From: Paenibacillaceae bacterium
GTDB taxonomy: Bacteria > Bacillota > Bacilli > Paenibacillales > CANHGK01
Assembly (NCBI GenBank): GCA_947460235.1
Contig: CANHGK010000008.1
Coordinates: 13,453-77,452 of the forward strand
Length of the DNA stretch: 64,000 bases
Reading direction: 5' to 3'
Part shown: positions 13,784-58,852 of the stretch, in pieces
Layout: every line of letters starts with the position of its first letter
Numbering within the stretch: the first letter of the stretch is position 1
The notes under the pieces: model-generated
What the model was told of the DNA's origin: nothing
Databases searched by the model: none
What the model saw: the letters and a program-made list of their open reading frames with translations, nothing else
Translations under genes and position numbers: made by a program

Positions 13784-13819
13784 TGATTATCTAATTTCGC
13801 GACAAATGAGGTGTTTAGC

Positions 13820-14233
13820 TTGGACGCAGTTTCAAATCAACGAGTGCATCCGCGGATCTCGATTAGTGGAAAGATCAAATTTTCGTTTATTGCATTTAAA
13901 ATTGGTGAAAACGGCAAATATGAAGAAGATATTTCAATTATTGAAACACAAATTCGCGATATTTCCCTTGGCGGCATCAGCTTTGAAGATGTGCGAAGTT
14001 ATGAGCCTGGCATGAAAGGGTATATTTTTATTGTAATCGGACGCAGAAGATATGCACTCGTTGGTGAAGTTGTACGGTGTATTTCAGGCCAAAATGCGTA
14101 TCAAGTCGGAATCGCATTAGATAAAAATTTGAATGATGATGGAATGTTTGAACCGAGTGAAGAAATTGTGGAATTAATTCAGCGCTTAGAAGTATTACTT
14201 GAACATGATCCGAATTATACGAACATCACGTAA
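13820..14233 (+). CDS. PilZ-domain protein (c-di-GMP receptor family), paralog A
   Basis: RxxxR motif (QRVHPR) and DxSxGG motif (RDISLGG). TTG 13820 follows a GAGGTG RBS. Confidence 0.65.
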   Translation: MDAVSNQRVHPRISISGKIKFSFIAFKIGENGKYEEDISIIETQIRDISLGGISFEDVRSYEPGMKGYIFIVIGRRRYALVGEVVRCISGQNAYQVGIALDKNLNDDGMFEPSEEIVELIQRLEVLLEHDPNYTNIT

Positions 14234-25067: not shown

Positions 25068-25451
25068 TTATTTGGATTGTTTTTTTGATACAATTTTTTT
25101 CTGCATAAATGTATAAAAGAAATTGAAGTCTTGGTACGAATCATGGTCAAATGAGAATCCATATCCGAATACACCCATTTGGATTGTCGTTTTACGTTGG
25201 ATGGTGCCTTTAAATGCGACACGGCGTTCATCAAGTATGAAAACGACTTCATATAGAACGACTGGGCTGACCGGAAGTTGAGCATTCGATTGAAAGAAAA
25301 TTCCGCCAGTGCTTACATCTTGCACATGTATTGTAATATTGCCCTTGTTTTCTACAGGTTGACCTTGAATTTTACGAATGGTCAAAATCCCTTTAACACT
25401 GATTTCTAACCGCTCATATTTTCGATTTTGGCTTCCGTTTTTCGGTTGCAT
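25068..25451 (-). CDS. PilZ-domain protein, paralog B
   Basis: RxxxR motif (NRKYER) and DxSxGG motif (QDVSTGG). ATG 25451 follows a GGAGG RBS. Confidence 0.6.
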   Translation of the reverse strand: MQPKNGSQNRKYERLEISVKGILTIRKIQGQPVENKGNITIHVQDVSTGGIFFQSNAQLPVSPVVLYEVVFILDERRVAFKGTIQRKTTIQMGVFGYGFSFDHDSYQDFNFFYTFMQKKIVSKKQSK

Positions 25452-25615
25452 TGCATTCGCCTCCGTCCAACTGCAAAAAAATATTTTCACCAATATCTTA
25501 CTACATGTCAATGTTATTTGACTAGTCTAAAATGTATGCGTTTTCAAAAAAATAAAAAAAGGACGTTCGTTCAGTGAAATACGAATTTCATGAACAAAAC
25601 GTCGAAGATTTACGA

Positions 25616-34428: not shown

Positions 34429-35262
34429 GTGAGTACACGCCGTACATCGTCCGTGATTCCCGGTTTTGGGTTGACCATGGGCTATACCATTGTCTATTTG
34501 AGTTTAATTGTTTTGATCCCTTTAGCAGGATTATTTTTCAAAATGGGTAGCGGTGACTGGCAGCACATTATCGAAGTCATCACGAGCCCACGTGTACTTG
34601 CGGCGTTCCGGGTCAGTTTGTTGACATCACTTGGTGCAGCACTTGCAAATGGTGTCATTGGATTATTAATCGCTTGGGTATTGGTGCGTTATCCATTTTC
34701 AGGACGAAAATTCGTGGATGCACTTATTGATCTTCCGTTTGCCCTACCTACTGCAGTCGCAGGGATCGCATTAACATCTTTGTATTCTCCAAAAGGATGG
34801 ATGGGACAACTCTTTGGAGAGATCGGAATTAAAATTGCATATACCCCGCTAGGAATTAGTCTTGCTTTGTTATTTATAGGCTTACCATTTGTAGTTCGGA
34901 CCATTCAACCGGTTTTGCAGGATGCGGAAACAGATGTTGAAGAAGCTGCGCTTACGTTAGGTGCATCGCGCTGGGTAACATTTTGGAAAGTAATTTTGCC
35001 AACATTATTACCATCTTGGTTGACTGGTGTCTCGCTTGCATTCGCACGTGGAATTGGTGAATACGGTTCTGTCGTTTTTATTTCCGGAAATATGCCAATG
35101 AAAACTGAAATTGTTCCACTATTAATTATTACCCAATTAGAGCAATTTGATTACGTAGCTGCGGCATCAATCGCTGTTGTAATGTTATTGTTGTCTTTTT
35201 TAATGTTGTTTGTGATAAATACTCTTCAGTGGCTAGCACGCCGCCGAATGCAAAATACGTAG
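34429..35262 (+). CDS. cysT: sulfate ABC transporter permease CysT
   Basis: 6 TM with an EAA loop (EAALTLGASRWVTFWKVILP). Confidence 0.8.
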   Translation: MSTRRTSSVIPGFGLTMGYTIVYLSLIVLIPLAGLFFKMGSGDWQHIIEVITSPRVLAAFRVSLLTSLGAALANGVIGLLIAWVLVRYPFSGRKFVDALIDLPFALPTAVAGIALTSLYSPKGWMGQLFGEIGIKIAYTPLGISLALLFIGLPFVVRTIQPVLQDAETDVEEAALTLGASRWVTFWKVILPTLLPSWLTGVSLAFARGIGEYGSVVFISGNMPMKTEIVPLLIITQLEQFDYVAAASIAVVMLLLSFLMLFVINTLQWLARRRMQNT

Positions 35263-35308
35263 AATCGCTTTGGAGGTGTTTAGGATGTCTAAAGGAGGAG
35301 CCCACGTA

Positions 35309-36142
35309 ATGTCCGGGAATCGGTCGGCGAGCATTGGGGGGTTACGTGAGCCGCGCTGGGTGAAAGTTGCACTCATTTCCATTACCCTGCTTTTAATCGG
35401 GTTGTTCATAGTGTTACCACTTATCGTGGTCGGAGAACACGCTTTTCGGAAAGGATTCGAAGTGTTTTGGGCGGCTATAAGTGATGATGCAGCGTTATCT
35501 GCGGTAAAATTAACATTAACAGTTGCGCTGTGGACGGTGCCAGTCAATGCTCTTTTTGGGATAGCTGCGGCGTGGGTATTAACAAAATTTCAATTTCGCG
35601 GAAAAAATATATTGCTGACATTAATTGATTTACCATTCGCGGTATCGCCGGTTATTGCCGGATTAATTTATGTTTTGATGTATGGAACAAATGGTTGGTT
35701 AGGGAAGTATTTGGATCAAGCTGACATTACGGTGATTTTTTCAACGCCGGGGATTGTGATTGCAACGATTTTTGTTACGTTTCCATTTGTTGTGCGCGAG
35801 TTGATGCCATTGATGCAGTCGCAGGGAATTAATGAAGAAGAAGCGGCAGTTACATTAGGAGCAAGTGGCTGGAGGGTGTTTTGGCAAGTAACATTGCCGA
35901 ACATCAAGTGGGCATTGTTATACGGTATTATTTTATGTAATGCGAGAGCGATGGGGGAGTTCGGCGCAGTATCAGTTGTTTCAGGACATATCCGCGGCGA
36001 AACGAACACGTTACCACTTCATATTGAAATTTTATATAATGAATATCACTTTGTGGAAGCTTTTGCAGTGTCGATGTTACTGGTTGTTCTTGCGCTCATT
36101 ACATTGATCATCAAAAGCATCATGGAAGGATGGGAATCATGA
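35309..36142 (+). CDS. cysW: sulfate ABC transporter permease CysW
   Basis: EAA loop (EEAAVTLGASGWRVFWQVTLP). GGAGGAG RBS before ATG 35309. Confidence 0.8.
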   Translation: MSGNRSASIGGLREPRWVKVALISITLLLIGLFIVLPLIVVGEHAFRKGFEVFWAAISDDAALSAVKLTLTVALWTVPVNALFGIAAAWVLTKFQFRGKNILLTLIDLPFAVSPVIAGLIYVLMYGTNGWLGKYLDQADITVIFSTPGIVIATIFVTFPFVVRELMPLMQSQGINEEEAAVTLGASGWRVFWQVTLPNIKWALLYGIILCNARAMGEFGAVSVVSGHIRGETNTLPLHIEILYNEYHFVEAFAVSMLLVVLALITLIIKSIMEGWES

Positions 36143-37206
36143 GCCAATGGCATATCGATGTGCAAAATGTAAATAAATTTTATGGAGAGTATCACGCAAG
36201 TAAAAACATTTCTTTTCAAGTTGAAAAGGGTAAACTGGTCGGTTTACTTGGACCGAGTGGTGGTGGAAAAACTACGATTTTACGGATGATCGCTGGACTT
36301 GAGCAACCAGATAACGGTTCGATTCTTTTTCGCGGACAAGAGATGAATCGAGTTGAGCCACAAAAACGAGGTATCGGGGTCGTTTTTCAAAATTATGCAT
36401 TGTTTAAGCATATGACCGTGTTTGATAATATTGCATTTGGATTAAATGTACAGAAGAAATCAAAGTCATTTATTAAAGAACGTGTTAACGAGTTGTTAGA
36501 TTTGACGAATTTAAGTGGACTTGGGAAGCGCTATCCTAATGAACTATCGGGCGGACAACGCCAACGCGTCGCTTTTGCACGTGCGCTAGCACCTGAACCG
36601 CAAATTTTATTGTTGGATGAACCTTTTGCTGCCATCGATGCACATGTACGCCGGGAATTGCGTTCGTGGCTCCGCGAAATGATCGATCGATTGGGGATTA
36701 CGACGTTATTCGTAACGCACGACCAAGAAGAAGCGATTGAAATTGCTGACCAAATATTGGTAGTGAATCAAGGTCGCATTGAGCAACATGGTACACCGAT
36801 TGAAATTTATCAATCTCCACAAACGGACTTTGTTGCTCGGTTTATTGGTGAATCTACGCAATTCGTCCCAAAAGGGATAATTCATGGGTTTAACGGCGTT
36901 GCTGACGGTCGGGAAGTGTTAATCCGACCTGAATTCGTAGAAATTGGCAAACCCAATGAAATTGCGCTTCCATCCGCAGCATCTCAAGGGACGGTACGAC
37001 ACCTTTATTACCGCGGCGCAAGTTGGGAAGTAGAAGTCGAAGTCGGTGGTGAGTTGCTCATTGGGAATCGTTCGGTTGAAAAATCATCATTGAAAATCGG
37101 GGATAAGGTTAGTGTACTTGTCCATCGGTTAATAGTATTTGAGAACGGCAAAGCGAATATCGTGGAAAATCAATTTAAGTATGATCCAATGCCGGTGTTT
37201 ATTTAA
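36130..37206 (+). CDS. cysA: sulfate ABC transporter ATP-binding protein CysA
   Basis: Walker A GPSGGGKTT, signature LSGGQRQR and a C-terminal TOBE-like domain. Confidence 0.85.
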   Translation: MGIMSQWHIDVQNVNKFYGEYHASKNISFQVEKGKLVGLLGPSGGGKTTILRMIAGLEQPDNGSILFRGQEMNRVEPQKRGIGVVFQNYALFKHMTVFDNIAFGLNVQKKSKSFIKERVNELLDLTNLSGLGKRYPNELSGGQRQRVAFARALAPEPQILLLDEPFAAIDAHVRRELRSWLREMIDRLGITTLFVTHDQEEAIEIADQILVVNQGRIEQHGTPIEIYQSPQTDFVARFIGESTQFVPKGIIHGFNGVADGREVLIRPEFVEIGKPNEIALPSAASQGTVRHLYYRGASWEVEVEVGGELLIGNRSVEKSSLKIGDKVSVLVHRLIVFENGKANIVENQFKYDPMPVFI

Positions 37207-37211
37207 TGAAA

Positions 37212-37260
37212 AAACCTTCACAATTGTTCAATCCGAGTGGATGAACTAGTGTGAAGGTTT
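37212..37260. terminator. bidirectional terminator
   Basis: AAAACCTTCACA...TGTGAAGGTTTTT. Confidence 0.55.
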
Positions 37261-37264
37261 TTAA

Positions 37265-38527
37265 TTATACGGATGCTTCTGCAGTCGTACGACTTTCTAA
37301 ATAAGCAGTTAATTTTTGACGAACATGAATCGCAGCCCCGGACAGTAAGCAACCATATTTATAACCGGCTTCGTCGTTTTCGACGCGGATAATCCGACCG
37401 ATCAATGGTGGCAATTCTGCTTCGTAAGGGAAGTGCAATACGATAAACATATCTTGTGCAAGTGGTGTTGCTGATGTAATCATCATCCCACCAGCCGAGA
37501 GATCAAAGAATTTACCTTCAACAGTTTGACCAACGAATGCGCCTTCTGCTGTATACTGATGAATCGAAATTTGAACGTCGATGCCCATGCGAATACGCGG
37601 TGCACGGCGACGATTCGTTTCTGGTTGTTCAGGATCGAATCGTTTCGTAATTTTGGCATTCATCAAGTCTTCGTATGTCATCACAACAGAGGATAAATCC
37701 ATTGCGCCAACTTCTTTTAGCATTGCCGTTTGATAAACATTTTTGCCGTTTTGGAGTATTGGTAGTGGCAATTGATATTCATCTGCAAGTTTGGAGGCAA
37801 TCTGTAAATCTTTATACATTAATTGAAGTGAGAATTGATTAGAAAAGTCGCGGGAAAGGATTTTCTCGCCTTTCATTTCAGCCATACGGCTGCTAGCACC
37901 GCCAGCAAGGACGACTTTCATAAATGCTTCTGGATCAATCCCTGATTTACTTGCAATGGCTAAGCCTTCGCAAAGGCCTAATACGTTGATTCCAACAATT
38001 GTATTTGCTGCAATTTTAGTATATCCACCTGAACCAGGGCCCCCCATATATATTGCATCTTTTCCCATTGCCAGGAAAAGATCGCGATGATCATCTAAAA
38101 TGGTTTGTTCGCCGCCAATCATGAACACCAAGCTACCGTCGATTGCCGCGGGTTTACTACCGGATACTGGCGCATCAAGAAAATCGATGCCATGTGATGC
38201 CAGTTCGATATGTAGTCGGATACTTAAGCCAGGTGAAATTGTGGAACAGTCGATAACCGTTACTGCGGGATGTAATCCATCCATGATGCCATTAGCACCA
38301 AAGTAAACATTCTCAATGGAGCTGTCATCACTCAACATGGTAATAACCACTTCAGACGATTTGACAACTTCTGCTGCACTTGCATGTGCAATTGCACCAA
38401 GTTCAATAAGCTCGTTCACACGTGAGTTCGTTCGGTTATATACGTTTAATGTGTAACCTTTCTTGATCAAGTTTGCTGCCATCGGTTGTCCCATAGTTCC
38501 GAGTCCAATAAAGCCTATTTTTTTCAT
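37265..38527 (-). CDS. NAD-binding beta-hydroxyacid (3-hydroxyisobutyrate-type) dehydrogenase fused to C-terminal PilZ domain
   Basis: N-terminal GFIGLGTMG Rossmann motif and HIBADH-like core. C-terminal ~110 aa carry RxxxR (NRRRAPRIR) and DxSxGG (FDLSAGG). GAGGTGA RBS before ATG 38527. Confidence 0.7.
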   Translation of the reverse strand: MKKIGFIGLGTMGQPMAANLIKKGYTLNVYNRTNSRVNELIELGAIAHASAAEVVKSSEVVITMLSDDSSIENVYFGANGIMDGLHPAVTVIDCSTISPGLSIRLHIELASHGIDFLDAPVSGSKPAAIDGSLVFMIGGEQTILDDHRDLFLAMGKDAIYMGGPGSGGYTKIAANTIVGINVLGLCEGLAIASKSGIDPEAFMKVVLAGGASSRMAEMKGEKILSRDFSNQFSLQLMYKDLQIASKLADEYQLPLPILQNGKNVYQTAMLKEVGAMDLSSVVMTYEDLMNAKITKRFDPEQPETNRRRAPRIRMGIDVQISIHQYTAEGAFVGQTVEGKFFDLSAGGMMITSATPLAQDMFIVLHFPYEAELPPLIGRIIRVENDEAGYKYGCLLSGAAIHVRQKLTAYLESRTTAEASV

Positions 38528-38705
38528 CCAATGATCACCTCGCGTACATTGTAACACGACATTTCATCGCTGTGAATGCTTTTACTTGCTTTTTTCCGTT
38601 GTTTTCAAGTATGCTATGTGATAAATATAATAGAACATCAAGGAAAAGACAGCCTAACAATGTTCGTGAAATGTGCAGGCCTTGTCTTATTAGGAGGATA
38701 CTTCA

Positions 38706-40088
38706 TTGAAAATCATCACAAATCCCGCACAACCAGACCGGTTGCTGACGTTAACCTACGATAAAGCGTTTCCGTTTGTGCAATCGCATGAACTTGATCA
38801 ATTAGCTGCACCAATTAAGTTGGCGCATGACCAGTTACATTTGAAAACTGGCGCTGGTAATGAATATGCCGGTTGGGTTGATTTGCCGTATTCCTACGAC
38901 AAAGTTGAATTCGCTCGAATTTTGGAATGTGCTGAGCGTATCCGTGAACAAGCAGATATTTTGATCGTGATCGGAATTGGTGGATCCTACTTAGGCGCAC
39001 GCGCGGCGCTTGAAATGCTTGGAAATGCGTTTAGTCCTGTATTAACGAAAGAACAACGCAAAGCGCCTCAAGTGTATTTCTTAGGGCACCATATTAGTTC
39101 GACGTATGCTGCACAATTATTCGAAGTGATGAAAGACAAAGATGTTGCGGTAAATGTCATTTCCAAATCTGGAACTACGACTGAACCTGCAGTTGCATTC
39201 CGAATGATGAAATCTTTCCTTGAAGAGAAATATGGTAAAGAAGGCGCAAAAACGCGTATTTATGCAACGACAGATAAATCTCGCGGTGCACTTCGCACAT
39301 TAGCTGACAGCGAAGGTTACGAGACGTTTGTCATTCCAGATGACGTTGGTGGTCGTTATTCTGTGTTGACACCAGTTGGTTTGCTACCACTTGCGGCAGC
39401 TGGATTAGATATTGTATCCATGATGCGCGGTGCACAAGCTTCCGTTGATGCATACTCCATTACGAATCTTGCTGACAATCCGGCATACCAATATGCTGCG
39501 GTGCGAACTGCGTTATATCGCAAAGGCAAAACAACTGAAATTCTTGTAAACTATGAGCCATATATGCACTTCGTGTCGGAGTGGTGGAAACAATTATTTG
39601 GCGAGAGCGAAGGCAAAGATCACAAAGGGATTTTCCCGGCTGCAGTTGATTTTTCATCCGATTTACATTCGATGGGGCAATACATTCAAGAAGGTCGACG
39701 CAATATTTTCGAAACTGTACTTCGTATTGAGCAAATGCCTCTCGATATTGTCATTGAAGCGGATAAAGATAACTTGGATGGGTTGAACTTCCTCGCAGGC
39801 AAAACGATGCAAGAAGTGAATCAGAAGGCGTTTGAAGGCACATTGCTAGCTCACCACGAAGGCGGGGTACCTAACATGGTCGTGAACCTTCCTTCTGCAA
39901 GTGCATATACGTTTGGCAACCTTGTATATTTCTTCGAAAAAGCTTGCGGAATTAGCGGTTACTTGCTTGGAGTAAATCCATTCGATCAACCAGGCGTGGA
40001 AGCTTACAAGAAGAATATGTTTGCGTTGCTTGGGAAACCAGGCTTTGAAGAAGAAAAAGCGCGCTTAGAAGCACTATTAAAGCGTTAA
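38706..40088 (+). CDS. pgi: glucose-6-phosphate isomerase
   Basis: Collinear with Bacillus Pgi over the full length ([21 protein letters not shown]). TTG start follows AGGAGGA. Confidence 0.85.
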
Positions 40089-47488: not shown

Positions 47489-47902
47489 TTATTGACGCAT
47501 CGACTCTTCAAAAATGACTTGATGAATCATTTCAAAATAAAATTCATAAATCGCCATTTGGTCGACGTGATAGTAACGAACTCCATACATATTGCCTTGA
47601 CTGCGTAGTACTTCAACAAGAATGGCTTTGCGTTTATAAACAATTTTCATTGGTACTTTAGCGGGATACGTTTCATTGCTTCGGATCAGCAATCCTCCCA
47701 GCGAAAAGTTGATAACGCTTGCAACAGAGGTGATGATTTTGTCATTTTCTTTGTGATAAATCGTAATTTCAATTGGTTTTTCTGGAACGTCTACACGAAG
47801 GTCCCGGCGGTTTTCTTCGAAATCTTTTTTCTCACGCGCCATCCTTTCATCCAACGTTTCCGGTTGTGCGGGTTGTTCTTGAGGGGGATTTTGGTCAGTC
47901 AA
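47489..47902 (-). CDS. PilZ-domain protein, paralog C
   Basis: RxxxR motif (NRRDLR) and xSxGG motif (NFSLGG). C-terminus similar to paralog B. The TTG at 47902 follows GAGGTGA; a GTG at 47911 is also possible. Confidence 0.55.
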   Translation of the reverse strand: MTDQNPPQEQPAQPETLDERMAREKKDFEENRRDLRVDVPEKPIEITIYHKENDKIITSVASVINFSLGGLLIRSNETYPAKVPMKIVYKRKAILVEVLRSQGNMYGVRYYHVDQMAIYEFYFEMIHQVIFEESMRQ

Positions 47903-48065
47903 TCTGATCACCTCACTATGTTGAATCTATAGTCACTTTTTTCGACATTTACCATAAGAATCCCTTTTATTTGATTAACTTTTTTAACATTACCAGTTTG
48001 AAAACGGATATGCATAATTATATAATTAATCGATTATATAATAACGAACAAGGAAGTGTTCTGAA

Positions 48066-58164: not shown

Positions 58165-58740
58165 TCACTCTAAAATAATATCTTTGTTCATAATTTGTTT
58201 GTACAGAATGTAGCTTTTAAGATTGTGTAGATTTTCTTTGGATACGATTAAGAATTCGCAACCATAACGTTTGCTTCCTTCAGCACCAACTTCGTTAACA
58301 ATTTTGATTTGCGCGACAAGCGGCAAGTCCATGTTAATCAGCGTATAGTGGCGGTCGGTTTGAACCGAGTTTTCATTAGTAGCAGAAAAACCAGCACCTT
58401 TGTGACTAATATCACTAAGTGAAATTTGAATATGCGATCCGGTTTTGTCGTCTTCAAGATTATCGATAAGATACGCTTTCATACCAGTTTTGATGCGCGG
58501 ATATTTACGTCGAACATCATTCAAGTCCACAAGTGCAAGTGGAATGAACAAATAAACGTTGTTTTGATGAACGTTAATCGCTCGCACGATGAATTCTTTG
58601 CCGCCATATGCGCAAGTCACATATTGTCCTACGCGTAATCTAGATGCGTCTGGAAGCGCAATTTTCATTAATTCTCCGTGATATAGAACGACTTCACCTT
58701 CAAGGATCTCGTCTCCGATTGTAATTTTTACCGTGTCCAT
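58165..58740 (-). CDS. YcgR/DgrA(YpfA)-like PilZ protein (PilZN + PilZ)
   Basis: C-terminal PilZ with an RxxxxR block (RRKYPRIK) and DISHKGAGF. Two-domain layout about 190 aa. GGAGG RBS before ATG 58740. Lies 25 nt downstream of corA on the same strand. Confidence 0.6.
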   Translation of the reverse strand: MDTVKITIGDEILEGEVVLYHGELMKIALPDASRLRVGQYVTCAYGGKEFIVRAINVHQNNVYLFIPLALVDLNDVRRKYPRIKTGMKAYLIDNLEDDKTGSHIQISLSDISHKGAGFSATNENSVQTDRHYTLINMDLPLVAQIKIVNEVGAEGSKRYGCEFLIVSKENLHNLKSYILYKQIMNKDIILE

Positions 58741-58852
58741 GGAACGGCCTCCTCTAAACAGTGCTGAGCCTGCATATGATTGCTTCGATTGCGAAATAGG
58801 ATAGACAAAAAAATCCATACCTTCCACAGTTACTGTATACTATTCTACAACG

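What the first reader, a model, noticed from the sequence alone, without database searches (positions are those of the whole stretch)
37265..38527. Metabolic dehydrogenase (HIBADH/beta-hydroxyacid dehydrogenase fold) fused to a C-terminal PilZ domain
The first ~300 aa form a complete NAD(P)-binding 3-hydroxyisobutyrate/6-phosphogluconate-dehydrogenase-like enzyme (GFIGLGTMG Rossmann motif). The last ~110 aa form a PilZ domain with intact RxxxR (RRRAPRIR) and DxSxGG (DLSAGG) motifs. A PilZ domain fused directly to a catabolic oxidoreductase would make enzyme activity directly responsive to c-di-GMP. I do not recognise this architecture as a described family.
Basis: partly seen in the sequence, partly recalled or inferred. 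Interest (0 to 1): 0.65.

Follow-up and report, generated by a model that had tools for sequence, protein, structure and literature searches.

The report
Dehydrogenase fused to c-di-GMP sensor
This gene encodes a complete NADPH-type small-acid reductase joined by a floppy linker to an intact PilZ c-di-GMP receptor, an apparently undescribed fusion conserved in at least 164 Paenibacillaceae species that probably lets a biofilm/motility signal act directly on a soluble metabolic enzyme.

Summary
Window 37265-38527 (minus strand) is one 420-aa ORF with its own promoter, ribosome-binding site and terminator. Residues 1-290 form a complete beta-hydroxyacid dehydrogenase (Pfam 1.4e-49 and 1e-27). 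It is 37% identical, without gaps, to the NADP+-bound Geobacter GHB dehydrogenase/succinic-semialdehyde reductase 3pef, and all catalytic and substrate residues are kept. Residues 305-411 form a canonical PilZ domain (40.9 bits against a cut-off of 22.5; RRxxxR and DLSxxG motifs; beta-barrel plus C-terminal helix; the top 22 Foldseek hits are c-di-GMP PilZ structures).

It is not an artefact. The identical protein occurs in three independent assemblies. The fusion occurs in at least 164 species genomes, all 80 fetched being Paenibacillaceae or unclassified Bacillales/Bacillota MAGs. It almost always lies divergent to pgi (80 of 81 loci). PilZ is the best-conserved segment (71% identity), while the linker is variable (17% identity, 9-56 aa).

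The same PilZ subtype is also fused to, or encoded next to, a GGACT enzyme. This suggests a PilZ class that partners with soluble enzymes.

I found no description in eight literature searches or two recent effector reviews. c-di-GMP binding, the substrate and the direction of regulation are inferred, not shown. Verdict: a real new variant of PilZ-regulated enzymes, moderately high interest.

The parts
37265..38527 (-). CDS of the 420-aa dehydrogenase-PilZ fusion protein (ATG 38527-38525; stop TAA 37267-37265)
   Evidence: ORF list. Gene calls on three independent assemblies translate to the identical protein. 120 of 120 best homologues have the same architecture.
38042..38521 (-). NAD(P)-binding Rossmann domain (aa 3-162, Pfam NAD_binding_2)
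   Evidence: Pfam E 1.4e-49, 168.6 bits. AF2 pLDDT above 90.
38489..38515 (-). Dinucleotide-binding motif GFIGLGTMG (aa 5-13)
   Evidence: G8, G10 and G13 are invariant in 119 sequences.
38429..38437 (-). N31-R32-T33, the NADP(H)-type 2'-phosphate motif at the end of beta-2
   Evidence: YNR[TS] and close variants (F/W at the first position, N at the last in two) occur in all 119 sequences. The aligned residues in NADP+-bound 3pef are N-R-S. The link to NADP specificity is from knowledge of the family.
37679..38035 (-). All-helical C-terminal dehydrogenase domain (aa 165-283, Pfam NAD_binding_11)
   Evidence: Pfam E 1e-27. Foldseek TMt 0.96-0.97 to 1vpd and 3pef.
38003..38017 (-). Catalytic Lys171 to Asn175 (motif GxGxxxKxxxN)
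   Evidence: K171 and N175 are invariant. They correspond to AtGLYR1 K170 and N174 (PMC5399074) and are identical in 3pef.
37619..37657 (-). Variable, disordered inter-domain linker (aa 291-303)
   Evidence: 17% mean pairwise identity and 9-56 aa long across the family. pLDDT below 50 for residues 299-312.
37295..37615 (-). Canonical PilZ domain (aa 305-411): six-stranded beta-barrel plus C-terminal helix
   Evidence: Pfam PF07238, 40.9 bits against a gathering cut-off of 22.5. AF2 secondary structure. The top 22 Foldseek PDB hits are c-di-GMP PilZ domains. It is the most conserved segment, at 71% identity.
37595..37612 (-). RRxxxR c-di-GMP-binding motif (R306 R307 R308 A P R311), at the linker/PilZ junction
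   Evidence: R306, R307 and R311 are invariant in 119 sequences. The motif definition is from bioRxiv 10.1101/814665.
37487..37504 (-). [D/N]hSxxG c-di-GMP-binding motif (D342 L S344 A G G347)
   Evidence: S344 and G347 are invariant. D342 is conserved in at least 90% of sequences, with Asn seen in one. Position h is L or I.
38548..38576 (-). Promoter of the fusion gene: -35 TTCACA (38576-38571), 17-nt spacer, extended -10 TGtTACAAT (38556-38548)
   Evidence: Promoter scan, 10 of 12 matches with TG. ATTCACA is conserved upstream in 50 of 78 homologous loci, with a similarly placed TGnTAnAAT-type -10 visible in most of the 25 printed upstream sequences.
38535..38541 (-). Ribosome-binding site GAGGTGA, 7 nt upstream of the ATG
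   Evidence: Sequence. GAGGTGA is present upstream in 70 of 78 loci.
37210..37262 (.). Bidirectional intrinsic terminator hairpin (AAAAACCTTCACA...TGTGAAGGTTTTT) shared with the convergent cysA
   Evidence: Sequence. RNA fold dG -25.3 kcal/mol, z = -7.2, followed by a U-run.
38706..40088 (+). Divergently transcribed pgi (glucose-6-phosphate isomerase), a conserved partner in synteny
   Evidence: Pfam PGI. It lies divergently adjacent to the fusion gene in 80 of 81 loci, with a median gap of 123 bp. The two promoters are conserved back to back.

Best explanation
The gene encodes a soluble, catalytically competent, probably NADPH-dependent beta-hydroxyacid dehydrogenase of the glyoxylate/succinic-semialdehyde/tartronate-semialdehyde reductase type. 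Its C-terminus carries, on a flexible linker, a canonical c-di-GMP-binding PilZ domain.

Proposed mechanism (inferred):
- At low c-di-GMP the PilZ domain is loosely tethered and the RRxxxR segment of the linker is disordered.
- When c-di-GMP rises, the RRxxxR loop and the DLSxxG strand clamp the ligand. This probably involves an intercalated c-di-GMP dimer, given the Arg preceding RxxxR.
- Clamping orders and shortens the linker and repositions PilZ against the dehydrogenase, either in the same subunit or in the neighbouring subunit of the oligomer.
- Repositioning then changes access to the active-site cleft or the oligomeric state, and so the enzyme's activity.

This would couple the sessile/motile second-messenger state directly to an NADPH-consuming aldehyde-acid reduction step, without transcription.

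Shown here: the domain identities, intact motifs, conservation, genuineness of the fusion, and the transcription unit. Inferred: c-di-GMP binding, the substrate, and the sign and mode of regulation.
For: - Both domains are significant and complete.
- The dehydrogenase half is 37% identical and gapless over 285 aa to NADP+-bound 3pef. The AF2 model superposes on it at TMt 0.97 and 1.1 A.
- All six residues shown by mutagenesis to matter in AtGLYR1 (K170, N174, F231, D239, S121, T95; PMC5399074) are present as K171, N175, F232, D240, S122 and T96. Five of them are invariant in the family; position 122 is Thr in at least 90% of members.
- The PilZ half has RRxxxR, [D]hSxxG and RxxxRhxh patterns, a beta-barrel and a C-terminal helix.
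- The top 22 structural neighbours are c-di-GMP-binding PilZ domains.
- PilZ is the most conserved segment (71% against 63-65% for the enzyme halves), so it is under strong purifying selection.
- The fusion is old and vertically inherited. The window protein is about equidistant from 80 Paenibacillaceae loci, as are the neighbouring Pgi and YigZ. Synteny with pgi holds in 80 of 81 loci.
- Rosetta-stone support: the same narrow PilZ subtype has only 14 representatives at E<=1e-10 among 1.84 billion. It is also fused to a GGACT/AIG2 enzyme (P0128), and it occurs as a stand-alone gene immediately after a separate GGACT gene in the same context. This subtype therefore repeatedly pairs with a small soluble enzyme.
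- c-di-GMP signalling is evidently active in these genomes. The window holds four more PilZ ORFs. A GGDEF cyclase gene lies about 2.8 kb downstream in 19 of 81 loci.
- Precedent: the survey of PilZ fusions states that fused PilZ domains invariably retain c-di-GMP binding (bioRxiv 10.1101/814665), and the C-terminal PilZ of BcsA gates its catalytic domain (PMC12564702).
Against: - There are no experimental data for any member.
- AlphaFold does not predict a confident PilZ-dehydrogenase interface (pTM 0.69; linker pLDDT below 50).
- Linker length varies from 9 to 56 aa, which argues against a single rigid docked geometry.
- The strongly conserved PilZ patches (DMFVxIHxPxEAxLPP, YGC) are shared with the GGACT-associated and stand-alone forms. 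They are therefore not a dehydrogenase-specific docking surface and could instead serve ligand binding, the fold, or a common third partner.
- The substrate is unknown, because scores fall below all NCBIfam equivalog cut-offs.
- The direction of regulation (activation or inhibition) cannot be deduced.
Confidence: 0.55

Rival explanations
1. Recruitment/adaptor model. PilZ binds c-di-GMP but does not regulate catalysis in cis. Instead, the ligand-bound PilZ docks the constitutively active enzyme onto another protein or complex. Alternatively, the dehydrogenase domain acts as an NADP(H)/metabolite sensor that conditions a PilZ-mediated protein-protein output, as in YcgR/MotI/MapZ-type adaptors.
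For: - The conserved surface motifs of this PilZ subtype are shared among the dehydrogenase-fused, GGACT-fused and stand-alone forms, as expected if they contact a common partner.
- The charged C-terminal helix of PilZ is a known protein-interaction element (bioRxiv 10.1101/814665).
- AF2 gives no confident intramolecular docking, and the linker is long and variable.
Against: - No candidate partner gene is shared between the two genomic contexts. One is pgi/yigZ/tkt, the other YheCD ATP-grasp/DUF445.
- The split and fused GGACT-PilZ pair points to the adjacent enzyme itself as the partner.
- All catalytic residues are invariant, so the dehydrogenase is not a degenerate sensor domain.
Confidence: 0.25
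2. The PilZ-like domain no longer functions as a c-di-GMP receptor. It would be a structural appendage, an oligomerisation or stability domain, or a binder of a different ligand, and the protein would be simply a beta-hydroxyacid dehydrogenase with a C-terminal extension.
For: - Some PilZ domains do not bind c-di-GMP.
- The Pfam score is moderate (40.9 bits) and Foldseek E-values are modest (4e-3; TM 0.5-0.6).
- There is no sequence-level hit to any solved PilZ.
Against: - Non-binding PilZ domains have disrupted motifs. Here R306, R307, R311, S344 and G347 are invariant and D342 nearly so across 119 sequences that share only 17% identity in the adjacent linker.
- According to the PilZ survey, fused PilZ domains invariably retain binding.
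Confidence: 0.07
3. Artefact. The ORF would be an assembly chimera or a sequencing frameshift that joins two separate genes, a dehydrogenase and a small PilZ protein.
For: - The window is a metagenome scaffold.
- RefSeq holds short PilZ-only calls (135 and 166 aa) for some homologous loci.
- One singleton contig (L089) may carry a genuinely split version.
Against: - The identical protein occurs on three independent assemblies.
- 80 of 80 loci fetched from isolate genomes and MAGs have an uninterrupted 410-521 aa ORF.
- Composition does not change across the junction.
- The short RefSeq calls cluster with full-length 423- and 454-aa proteins from the same species (same contig for the 135/423-aa pair).
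Confidence: 0.01

Closest known systems
Bacterial cellulose synthase BcsA (GT2 catalytic domain with a C-terminal PilZ; PDB 4p00/5ej1)
   Same: An enzyme carries a C-terminal canonical PilZ whose RxxxR lies in the linker to the catalytic part. c-di-GMP binding relieves autoinhibition of the active site (PMC12564702). The BcsA PilZ is among the best structural matches (TMq 0.60).
   Different: BcsA is a membrane-embedded processive glycosyltransferase with a gating loop and a TM8 connection. This protein is a soluble NADPH oxidoreductase with an unstructured linker of variable length. It has no GT2 domain, no transmembrane segments and no recognisable gating loop.
[quoted passage not shown]
   Same: Same fold (TMt 0.94-0.97) and 35-37% identity. 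The catalytic and substrate residues are identical, as are the N-R-S/T NADP motif and the SGSK motif.
   Different: None of these enzymes has a C-terminal extension. No PDB entry aligns beyond about 299 columns. The protein does not reach any NCBIfam equivalog cut-off, so its substrate may differ.
Streptomyces GlgX, a glycogen-debranching enzyme allosterically activated by c-di-GMP (PMC9530166)
   Same: A soluble metabolic enzyme under direct c-di-GMP control.
   Different: GlgX is listed here as a conceptual precedent only: I did not read the paper for how it binds c-di-GMP. It acts on a polysaccharide, not in small-molecule redox chemistry, and comes from a different phylum.
Caulobacter SmbA, a TIM-barrel, aldo-keto-reductase-related 'metabolic switch' that binds c-di-GMP and ppGpp (PMC9944927)
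   Same: An oxidoreductase-related protein whose state is set by c-di-GMP.
   Different: It has a TIM-barrel fold and no PilZ, the ligand sits in the barrel, and no catalytic activity is established. The protein here has a Rossmann beta-HAD with an intact active site plus a separate PilZ.
YcgR/MotI/PlzD two-domain PilZ receptors
   Same: c-di-GMP binds at the inter-domain linker (RRxxxR) in front of a C-terminal PilZ and drives domain re-packing. They are structural neighbours.
   Different: Their N-terminal domains are degenerate PilZ-like (PilZN/PilZNR) adaptors that act on flagellar motors. Here the N-terminal partner is a full enzyme.
GGACT/AIG2-PilZ fusion (P0128) and the adjacent GGACT + PilZ gene pair (L084-L088), found here
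   Same: The same narrow PilZ subtype (E 6e-35 and 1.5e-33 to the profile; shared DMFV...P.EA.LP...YGC motifs), attached to or encoded next to a small soluble enzyme.
   Different: The partner enzyme has a different fold (gamma-glutamyl(amine) cyclotransferase-like) and the genomic context is different (four YheC/D ATP-grasp genes, DUF445). It is also uncharacterised.

Membership tests
beta-hydroxyacid dehydrogenase superfamily (HIBADH/6PGDH-related; Pfam NAD_binding_2 + NAD_binding_11) | Both Pfam domains score above the gathering threshold and in the correct order | tested here: met
   168.6 bits (cut-off 21) and 97.2 bits (cut-off 30).
beta-hydroxyacid dehydrogenase superfamily | N-terminal GxxGxGxMG dinucleotide-binding motif | tested here: met
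   IGFIGLGTMG at aa 4-13. G8, G10, M12 and G13 are invariant.
beta-hydroxyacid dehydrogenase superfamily | Substrate-binding DAPVSGG-type motif, catalytic Lys in GxGxxxKxxxN, and the KDLxxA motif | tested here: met
   DAPVSGS (aa 118-124), GSGGYTK171IAAN175 and K239-D240-L241. D118, P120, V121, G123, K171, N175, K239 and D240 are invariant; A119 and L241 are conserved in at least 90%. The motif definitions are from my knowledge of the family.
beta-hydroxyacid dehydrogenase superfamily | Fold: Rossmann domain plus an all-alpha C-terminal domain | tested here: met
   AF2 pLDDT above 90 for residues 1-290. Foldseek TMt 0.96-0.97 and rmsd 1.1-1.3 A to 1vpd and 3pef.
beta-hydroxyacid dehydrogenase superfamily | NAD(P)-dependent oxidoreductase activity | not testable with these tools
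   Requires an enzyme assay.
Named equivalogs: tartronate semialdehyde reductase (NF008592/TIGR01505), HIBADH (TIGR01692), sulfolactaldehyde reductase, L-threonate dehydrogenase | Score at or above the NCBIfam curated cut-off | tested here: not met
   250.8 against 397; 244.3 against 340.75; 206.6 against 291.6; 179.3 against 348; 157.6 against 350.
NADPH-dependent glyoxylate/succinic semialdehyde reductase (GLYR/GHB-DH type) | Catalytic K and N plus substrate residues F, D, S and T of AtGLYR1; NADP-type N-R-S/T motif | tested here: met
   K171, N175, F232, D240, S122 and T96 are present, as is N31-R32-T33. All are identical to 3pef apart from T33, where 3pef has Ser.
NADPH-dependent glyoxylate/succinic semialdehyde reductase (GLYR/GHB-DH type) | Orthology and substrate preference for glyoxylate or SSA | tested here: inconclusive
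   3pef is the best PDB sequence hit, but at only 37% identity. TSR 1vpd is nearly as close at 35%, and it is first by Foldseek. No phylogeny with unfused homologues could be built, and there is no assay.
Canonical c-di-GMP-binding PilZ domain (PF07238) | Pfam match above the gathering score | tested here: met
   40.9 bits against 22.5, covering 101 of 102 profile positions.
Canonical c-di-GMP-binding PilZ domain (PF07238) | RxxxR motif in the N-terminal loop (with the RxxxRhxh pattern) | tested here: met
   R306-R307-R-A-P-R311-I-R-M. R306, R307 and R311 are invariant in 119 sequences. Definition.
Canonical c-di-GMP-binding PilZ domain (PF07238) | [D/N]hSxxG motif with a hydrophobic residue at h | tested here: met
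   D342-L-S344-A-G-G347. Across the family it reads D[LI]SxxG. Definition.
Canonical c-di-GMP-binding PilZ domain (PF07238) | [quoted passage not shown] | tested here: met
   AF2 gives six strands plus helix 400-419. The top 22 Foldseek hits are PilZ domains of Alg44, BcsA, MrkH, PP4397, MotI and YcgR (VCA0042 at rank 43). Model confidence is moderate (pLDDT 79).
Canonical c-di-GMP-binding PilZ domain (PF07238) | Binds c-di-GMP | not testable with these tools
   Requires ITC, DRaCALA or a co-crystal structure.
YcgR/MotI-type receptors (PilZN or PilZNR + PilZ) | N-terminal PilZN/PilZNR (degenerate PilZ-like) domain | tested here: not met
   The N-terminal 290 aa are a dehydrogenase, and there is no PF07317 or PF12945 hit.
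BcsA-type PilZ-gated glycosyltransferase | GT2 catalytic domain, transmembrane helices and a gating loop | tested here: not met
   There is no glycosyltransferase domain, and the AF2 model consists only of the two soluble folds, with no additional helical segments. Transmembrane segments were not predicted separately. Only the logic of 'enzyme plus C-terminal PilZ' is shared.

The most novel reading that the evidence does not exclude
The dehydrogenase-PilZ protein, together with the related GGACT-PilZ fusion and gene pair, would define a previously unrecognised class of Bacillota PilZ modules. Their job would be direct, post-translational c-di-GMP control of soluble small-molecule enzymes. For this protein, c-di-GMP would switch an NADPH-dependent glyoxylate/succinic-semialdehyde-type reductase whose gene sits beside pgi and tkt. 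That would be the first PilZ-mediated link between the biofilm/motility messenger and redox or aldehyde metabolism.
Probability: 0.4. Interest if true: 0.72.

Novelty: new variant of a known kind. Interest (0 to 1): 0.58.

Why it matters
Known PilZ outputs are mostly exopolysaccharide synthases, flagellar and pilus machinery, chemotaxis and transcription. Direct c-di-GMP control of soluble metabolic enzymes is known only from a few non-PilZ cases, such as GlgX and SmbA. A PilZ domain hard-wired to an NADPH-dependent aldehyde-acid reductase would extend the PilZ repertoire to core small-molecule and redox metabolism. The family is conserved in at least 164 Paenibacillaceae species.

It is also a simple experimental system. 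It is one soluble polypeptide with a spectrophotometric assay, so it could show how a PilZ domain transmits ligand binding to a fused enzyme. Paenibacillus c-di-GMP biology is almost unexplored, although the window alone holds five PilZ proteins. The split and fused GGACT-PilZ pair suggests the principle is more general.

Tried and rejected
- **Assembly or frameshift artefact:** rejected. The protein occurs in three independent assemblies, and 80 of 80 loci have an intact ORF.
- **Longer GTG start at 38557:** rejected. That GTG lies inside the promoter's extended -10 region. The RBS and the database gene calls point to the ATG at 38527.
- **c-di-GMP or other riboswitch control:** no Rfam hit anywhere in the 64-kb window.
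- **Conserved regulator site in the pgi-fusion intergenic region:** the conserved blocks resolve into two back-to-back sigma-A-type promoters, not an obvious operator.
- **Sequence-level relative of the PilZ among solved structures:** none. The best hit was an irrelevant YukD match at E 0.18. A fold search was needed instead.
- **AFDB50 fold search for similar two-domain models:** that library was unavailable.
- **Possible naturally split DH|PilZ version (P0127/L089):** stop codons lie upstream, the preceding ORF ends ...QNWTF*, and tkt-purU-nfo lie downstream. However, the contig ends 56 nt upstream, no relatives were found in the 5.8-billion-protein search, and the metagenome scan brought back four loci at about 50% identity; the one I checked (L090) is an ordinary fusion. 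This remains unresolved.
- **6-phosphogluconate dehydrogenase identity, suggested by the pgi/tkt neighbours:** rejected. Scores are only 50-69 bits against cut-offs of 271-427, and the 6PGD C-terminal domain is absent.
- **The window's other PilZ ORFs as paralogous sources of the fused PilZ:** rejected. They share at most about 25% identity over alignable stretches, with weak E-values.
- **Literature:** eight full-text searches and targeted reading of the PilZ survey and two effector reviews found no description. The library covers only open-access papers and bioRxiv.
Full report
**1. Observation**

The reported interval is exactly one coding sequence on the minus strand. The ORF list gives 37265-38557 (GTG, 430 aa). 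That GTG lies inside a sigma-70-type promoter, TTCACA-17-TGtTACAAT at 38576-38548. A strong RBS (GAGGTGA, 38541-38535) precedes the ATG at 38527. Public gene calls use that ATG, giving 420 aa.

Two nucleotides after the stop codon lies a hairpin at 37210-37262. It is flanked by an A-run and a T-run. It folds at -25.3 kcal/mol, with z = -7.2 against shuffles. It serves as a bidirectional terminator shared with the convergent cysA. The gene is therefore a monocistronic unit. Base composition shows no discontinuity across it.

**2. Domain content**

Pfam finds three domains, each above its gathering threshold:
- NAD_binding_2, aa 3-162, E 1.4e-49.
- NAD_binding_11, aa 165-283, E 1e-27.
- PilZ, aa 305-411, E 2.8e-10, 40.9 bits against a cut-off of 22.5, covering 101 of 102 profile positions.

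They are GFIGLGTMG (aa 5-13), RRRAPR (aa 306-311) and DLSAGG (aa 342-347).

**3. Not an artefact, and not a one-off**

The identical 420-aa protein is encoded on a 295-kb metagenome scaffold (the source of the window). It is also encoded on two independently assembled SRA contigs, one with the same neighbours.

The 120 best homologues among 5.8 billion proteins are 48-54% identical over about 98% of the length. All carry PilZ plus both dehydrogenase domains. Where named, they come from Paenibacillus, Gordoniibacillus or 'Paenibacillaceae bacterium'. They are annotated only as 'NAD(P)-binding domain-containing protein', 'tartronate semialdehyde reductase' or '3-hydroxyisobutyrate dehydrogenase-like'.

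A PilZ-only profile found relatives in 164 species-representative genomes. All 80 fetched loci contain an uninterrupted fusion ORF of 410-521 aa.

**4. Conservation pattern**

In a 119-sequence alignment the following residues are invariant:
- In the dehydrogenase half: the Rossmann glycines, N31-R32, S95-T96, D118, P120, V121, G123, K171, N175, F232 and K239-D240.
- In the PilZ half: R306, R307, R311, S344 and G347. D342 is conserved in at least 90% of sequences, with Asn seen in one.

Mean pairwise identity by segment is as follows:

| Segment | Mean pairwise identity | Length |
|---|---|---|
| Dehydrogenase, N-terminal domain | 63% | about 162 aa |
| Dehydrogenase, C-terminal domain | 65% | 126 aa |
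| Linker | 17% | 9-56 aa |
| PilZ | 71% | 108-111 aa |

The sensor domain is thus the most strongly constrained part, and it is tethered by a free-evolving linker.

**5. What the enzyme half is**

The closest solved sequence is 3pef (E 5.9e-55). It aligns without gaps over residues 2-286 at 37% identity. Tartronate semialdehyde reductase 1vpd follows at 35%. Foldseek labels 3pef as the gamma-hydroxybutyrate dehydrogenase of Geobacter metallireducens in complex with NADP+. The AF2 model superposes on 3pef and 1vpd at TMt 0.96-0.97 and 1.1-1.3 A.

The residues reported as catalytic (K170, N174) and substrate-binding (F231, D239, S121, T95) in Arabidopsis GLYR1 (PMC5399074) correspond here to K171, N175, F232, D240, S122 and T96. 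All are present and identical to those in 3pef. The N-R-T triplet after beta-2 matches the N-R-S of NADP+-bound 3pef. TSR has an Asp-type NAD signature at that position in the same alignment.

No NCBIfam equivalog threshold is reached. The best is TSR at 251 bits against a cut-off of 397. My reading is an active, probably NADPH-preferring reductase of small aldehyde-acids (glyoxylate, succinic semialdehyde or tartronate semialdehyde type). The substrate is not established, and 'catabolic HIBADH' is not the best description.

**6. What the C-terminal half is**

The AF2 model of the full protein has pLDDT 88. It shows a disordered segment at residues 299-312 that contains the RRxxxR motif, as expected for an unliganded PilZ. 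Six beta-strands and a terminal helix (aa 400-419) follow. A PilZ-only model has pLDDT 79. Its 22 best PDB neighbours are all c-di-GMP-binding PilZ domains: Alg44, BcsA, MrkH, PP4397, MotI and YcgR, with VCA0042 further down at rank 43. The E-values are modest and TM is 0.5-0.6.

The domain also fits the refined motifs [D/N]hSxxG and RxxxRhxh, and it has the C-terminal helix of canonical PilZ described by Galperin and Chou (bioRxiv 10.1101/814665). The same survey notes that PilZ domains in fusion proteins invariably keep c-di-GMP binding. I recall from the PP4397/VCA0042 literature that an Arg directly before RxxxR, as here, favours binding of an intercalated c-di-GMP dimer. I did not re-verify this.

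**7. Genomic context**

Across 81 loci the context is as follows:
- pgi is the divergent immediate neighbour in 80 loci, with a median gap of 123 bp.
- A YigZ/IMPACT-family gene follows pgi in 79 loci.
- A TetR gene lies further upstream in 63 loci.
- Ppnp and transketolase lie downstream in 53 loci.
- purU and an AP-endonuclease-2-family gene (putative nfo/endonuclease IV, assigned only for the window's locus L001) lie further on.

The conserved upstream blocks are two back-to-back sigma-A-type promoters. The fusion gene has ATTCACA-17-TGnTAnAAT. pgi has TTGCTT-18-TATGCT in the window at 38586-38615, plus strand. I saw no obvious operator, and there is no Rfam element.

In the window's lineage a sulfate ABC transporter (CysT and CysW equivalogs plus a sulfate ABC transporter ATPase, cysA-like) is inserted between the fusion gene and ppnp-tkt.

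The window proteins are about equidistant from all 80 loci. Pgi is 65-69% identical, YigZ 40-49% and the fusion 46-54%. This indicates a deep-branching relative and old vertical inheritance of an already fused gene.

c-di-GMP signalling is clearly in use. The window has four further PilZ ORFs, three above the Pfam cut-off. A membrane GGDEF cyclase gene lies about 2.8 kb downstream in 19 loci, and a motif-predicted EAL gene lies adjacent in one.

**8. The PilZ subtype elsewhere**

An exhaustive HMMER scan of 1.84 billion representatives with the PilZ-only profile gave only 14 hits at E<=1e-10. A gap then follows down to generic PilZ proteins at about 1e-6.

Most of the strong hits are fusions, fragments of them, or short alternative gene calls of them. 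Two are different:
- P0128 (268 aa; seven cluster members; contigs up to 40 kb) is a GGACT/AIG2-like enzyme fused to this PilZ subtype.
- P0129 (125 aa) is a stand-alone PilZ encoded directly after a separate 155-aa GGACT gene. Its context is the same as that of P0128: YheC/D ATP-grasp genes, DUF445, GGACT, then PilZ.

This split and fused pair is classical Rosetta-stone evidence that the PilZ subtype works with the adjacent enzyme. It suggests a class of PilZ modules dedicated to soluble enzymes.

A possible split DH|PilZ version (P0127, L089) could not be confirmed. The contig ends 56 nt upstream and no relatives were found.

**9. Mechanism**

My best-supported reading, at about 0.55, is cis-regulation. 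c-di-GMP would be clamped between the RRxxxR loop at the end of the linker and the DLSxxG strand. This would order the linker and reposition PilZ against the dehydrogenase, in the same or the neighbouring subunit. Active-site access or oligomerisation would change as a result. The logic resembles BcsA (PMC12564702) and the linker-clamping of YcgR/PlzD-type receptors.

Several findings weigh against over-confidence:
- AF2 gives no confident interface (pTM 0.69).
- Linker length is highly variable.
- The conserved PilZ patches are shared with the GGACT-associated forms, so they are not dehydrogenase-specific.

The main rival, at about 0.25, is a recruitment or adaptor role, possibly with the dehydrogenase as an NADP(H) sensor. 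A non-binding PilZ (about 0.07) and an artefact (about 0.01) are unlikely.

**10. Novelty**

None of the eight full-text searches I ran found this architecture. Neither did the PilZ domain survey nor the 2023 and 2025 c-di-GMP effector reviews. No solved structure extends beyond the dehydrogenase part.

The sequences themselves are in public databases under generic names. Enzyme-plus-PilZ logic is known from BcsA. Direct c-di-GMP control of soluble metabolic proteins is known from GlgX (PMC9530166) and SmbA (PMC9944927). I therefore rate this a new variant of a known kind. It is real, conserved and easily testable, and of moderately high interest (0.58).

Noticed in passing
window 13811-14233 (+), 25068-25511 (-), 47489-47911 (-), 58165-58827 (-): There are four further PilZ-domain ORFs in the same 64 kb. 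Three are above the Pfam cut-off (28.2, 29.5 and 30.5 bits) and one is marginal (22.4 against 22.5). The 220-aa ORF has an unassigned 105-aa N-terminus and may be MotI/YpfA-like. All share at most about 25% identity with the fused PilZ over alignable stretches. Five PilZ proteins in 64 kb is unusually dense, and no GGDEF or EAL ORF is present in the window.
   Followed up: partly
L084 6001-6807; L085; L086 (P0128) and L087 5444-6378; L088 4533-5467 (P0129): A GGACT/AIG2-like (gamma-glutamyl cyclotransferase-like) enzyme is fused to the same PilZ subtype in some uncultured Bacillota. In others the two are adjacent separate genes. In every case they sit next to a cluster of three or four YheC/D-type ATP-grasp genes and a DUF445 gene. 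This looks like a second, uncharacterised c-di-GMP-linked enzyme system, possibly acting on gamma-glutamyl peptides.
   Followed up: partly
L089 1-440: A stand-alone 126-aa PilZ of the fusion subtype has in-frame stop codons upstream. The preceding ORF ends ...QNWTF*, which resembles the dehydrogenase C-terminus YEDWM. tkt-purU-nfo follow downstream, as at fusion loci. This may be a naturally split dehydrogenase|PilZ gene pair. The contig ends 56 nt upstream and no relatives were found.
   Followed up: partly
L007 9137-10246 and 18 other loci (about 2.8 kb downstream of the fusion gene); L056 6392-8002: A membrane-anchored GGDEF (GGEEF) diguanylate cyclase gene lies just beyond ppnp-tkt in 19 of 81 loci (Pfam GGDEF E 7e-41 for L007). 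In L056 an ORF with EAL-type sequence motifs (regex match only, no Pfam check) directly abuts the fusion gene. These are possible local sources or sinks of c-di-GMP.
   Followed up: partly
window 38586-38615 (+) and 38548-38576 (-); homologous regions of L004-L083: The pgi and fusion-gene promoters lie back to back, with -35 boxes about 10 bp apart. Both are conserved across the family (TAG[CA]ATACTT...AAAGCAAGTA...ATTCACAG). This raises the possibility of coupled or competing transcription of pgi and the fusion gene.
   Followed up: partly
window 34429-37206 (+), and upstream on L001 11322-15142: A sulfate ABC transporter lies between the fusion gene and ppnp-tkt in this lineage. It comprises CysT and CysW equivalogs, a sulfate-type ATPase and a binding protein. 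In most Paenibacillus loci ppnp-tkt follow the fusion gene directly, so this looks like a lineage-specific insertion.
   Followed up: yes
L023, about 70-140 nt upstream of the fusion start codon (Paenibacillus alkalitolerans): A long (CT)n dinucleotide repeat of more than 70 nt replaces the usual pgi-promoter block just upstream of the fusion gene's promoter. It could be a contingency or phase-variable element, or an assembly oddity.
   Followed up: no
P0121/P0199 and P0126/P0198 (Paenibacillus gyeongsangnamensis / P. filicis; Gorillibacterium massiliense): RefSeq holds both short 'PilZ domain-containing protein' calls (135 and 166 aa) and full-length 423- and 454-aa calls that fall in the same 90%-identity clusters, from the same species (same 348-kb contig for the first pair). 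Inconsistent start-site annotation like this can hide the fusion in database surveys.
   Followed up: yes
window 1-64000: There are no Rfam matches at gathering thresholds anywhere in 64 kb: no tRNA, no riboswitch and no sRNA family.
   Followed up: no
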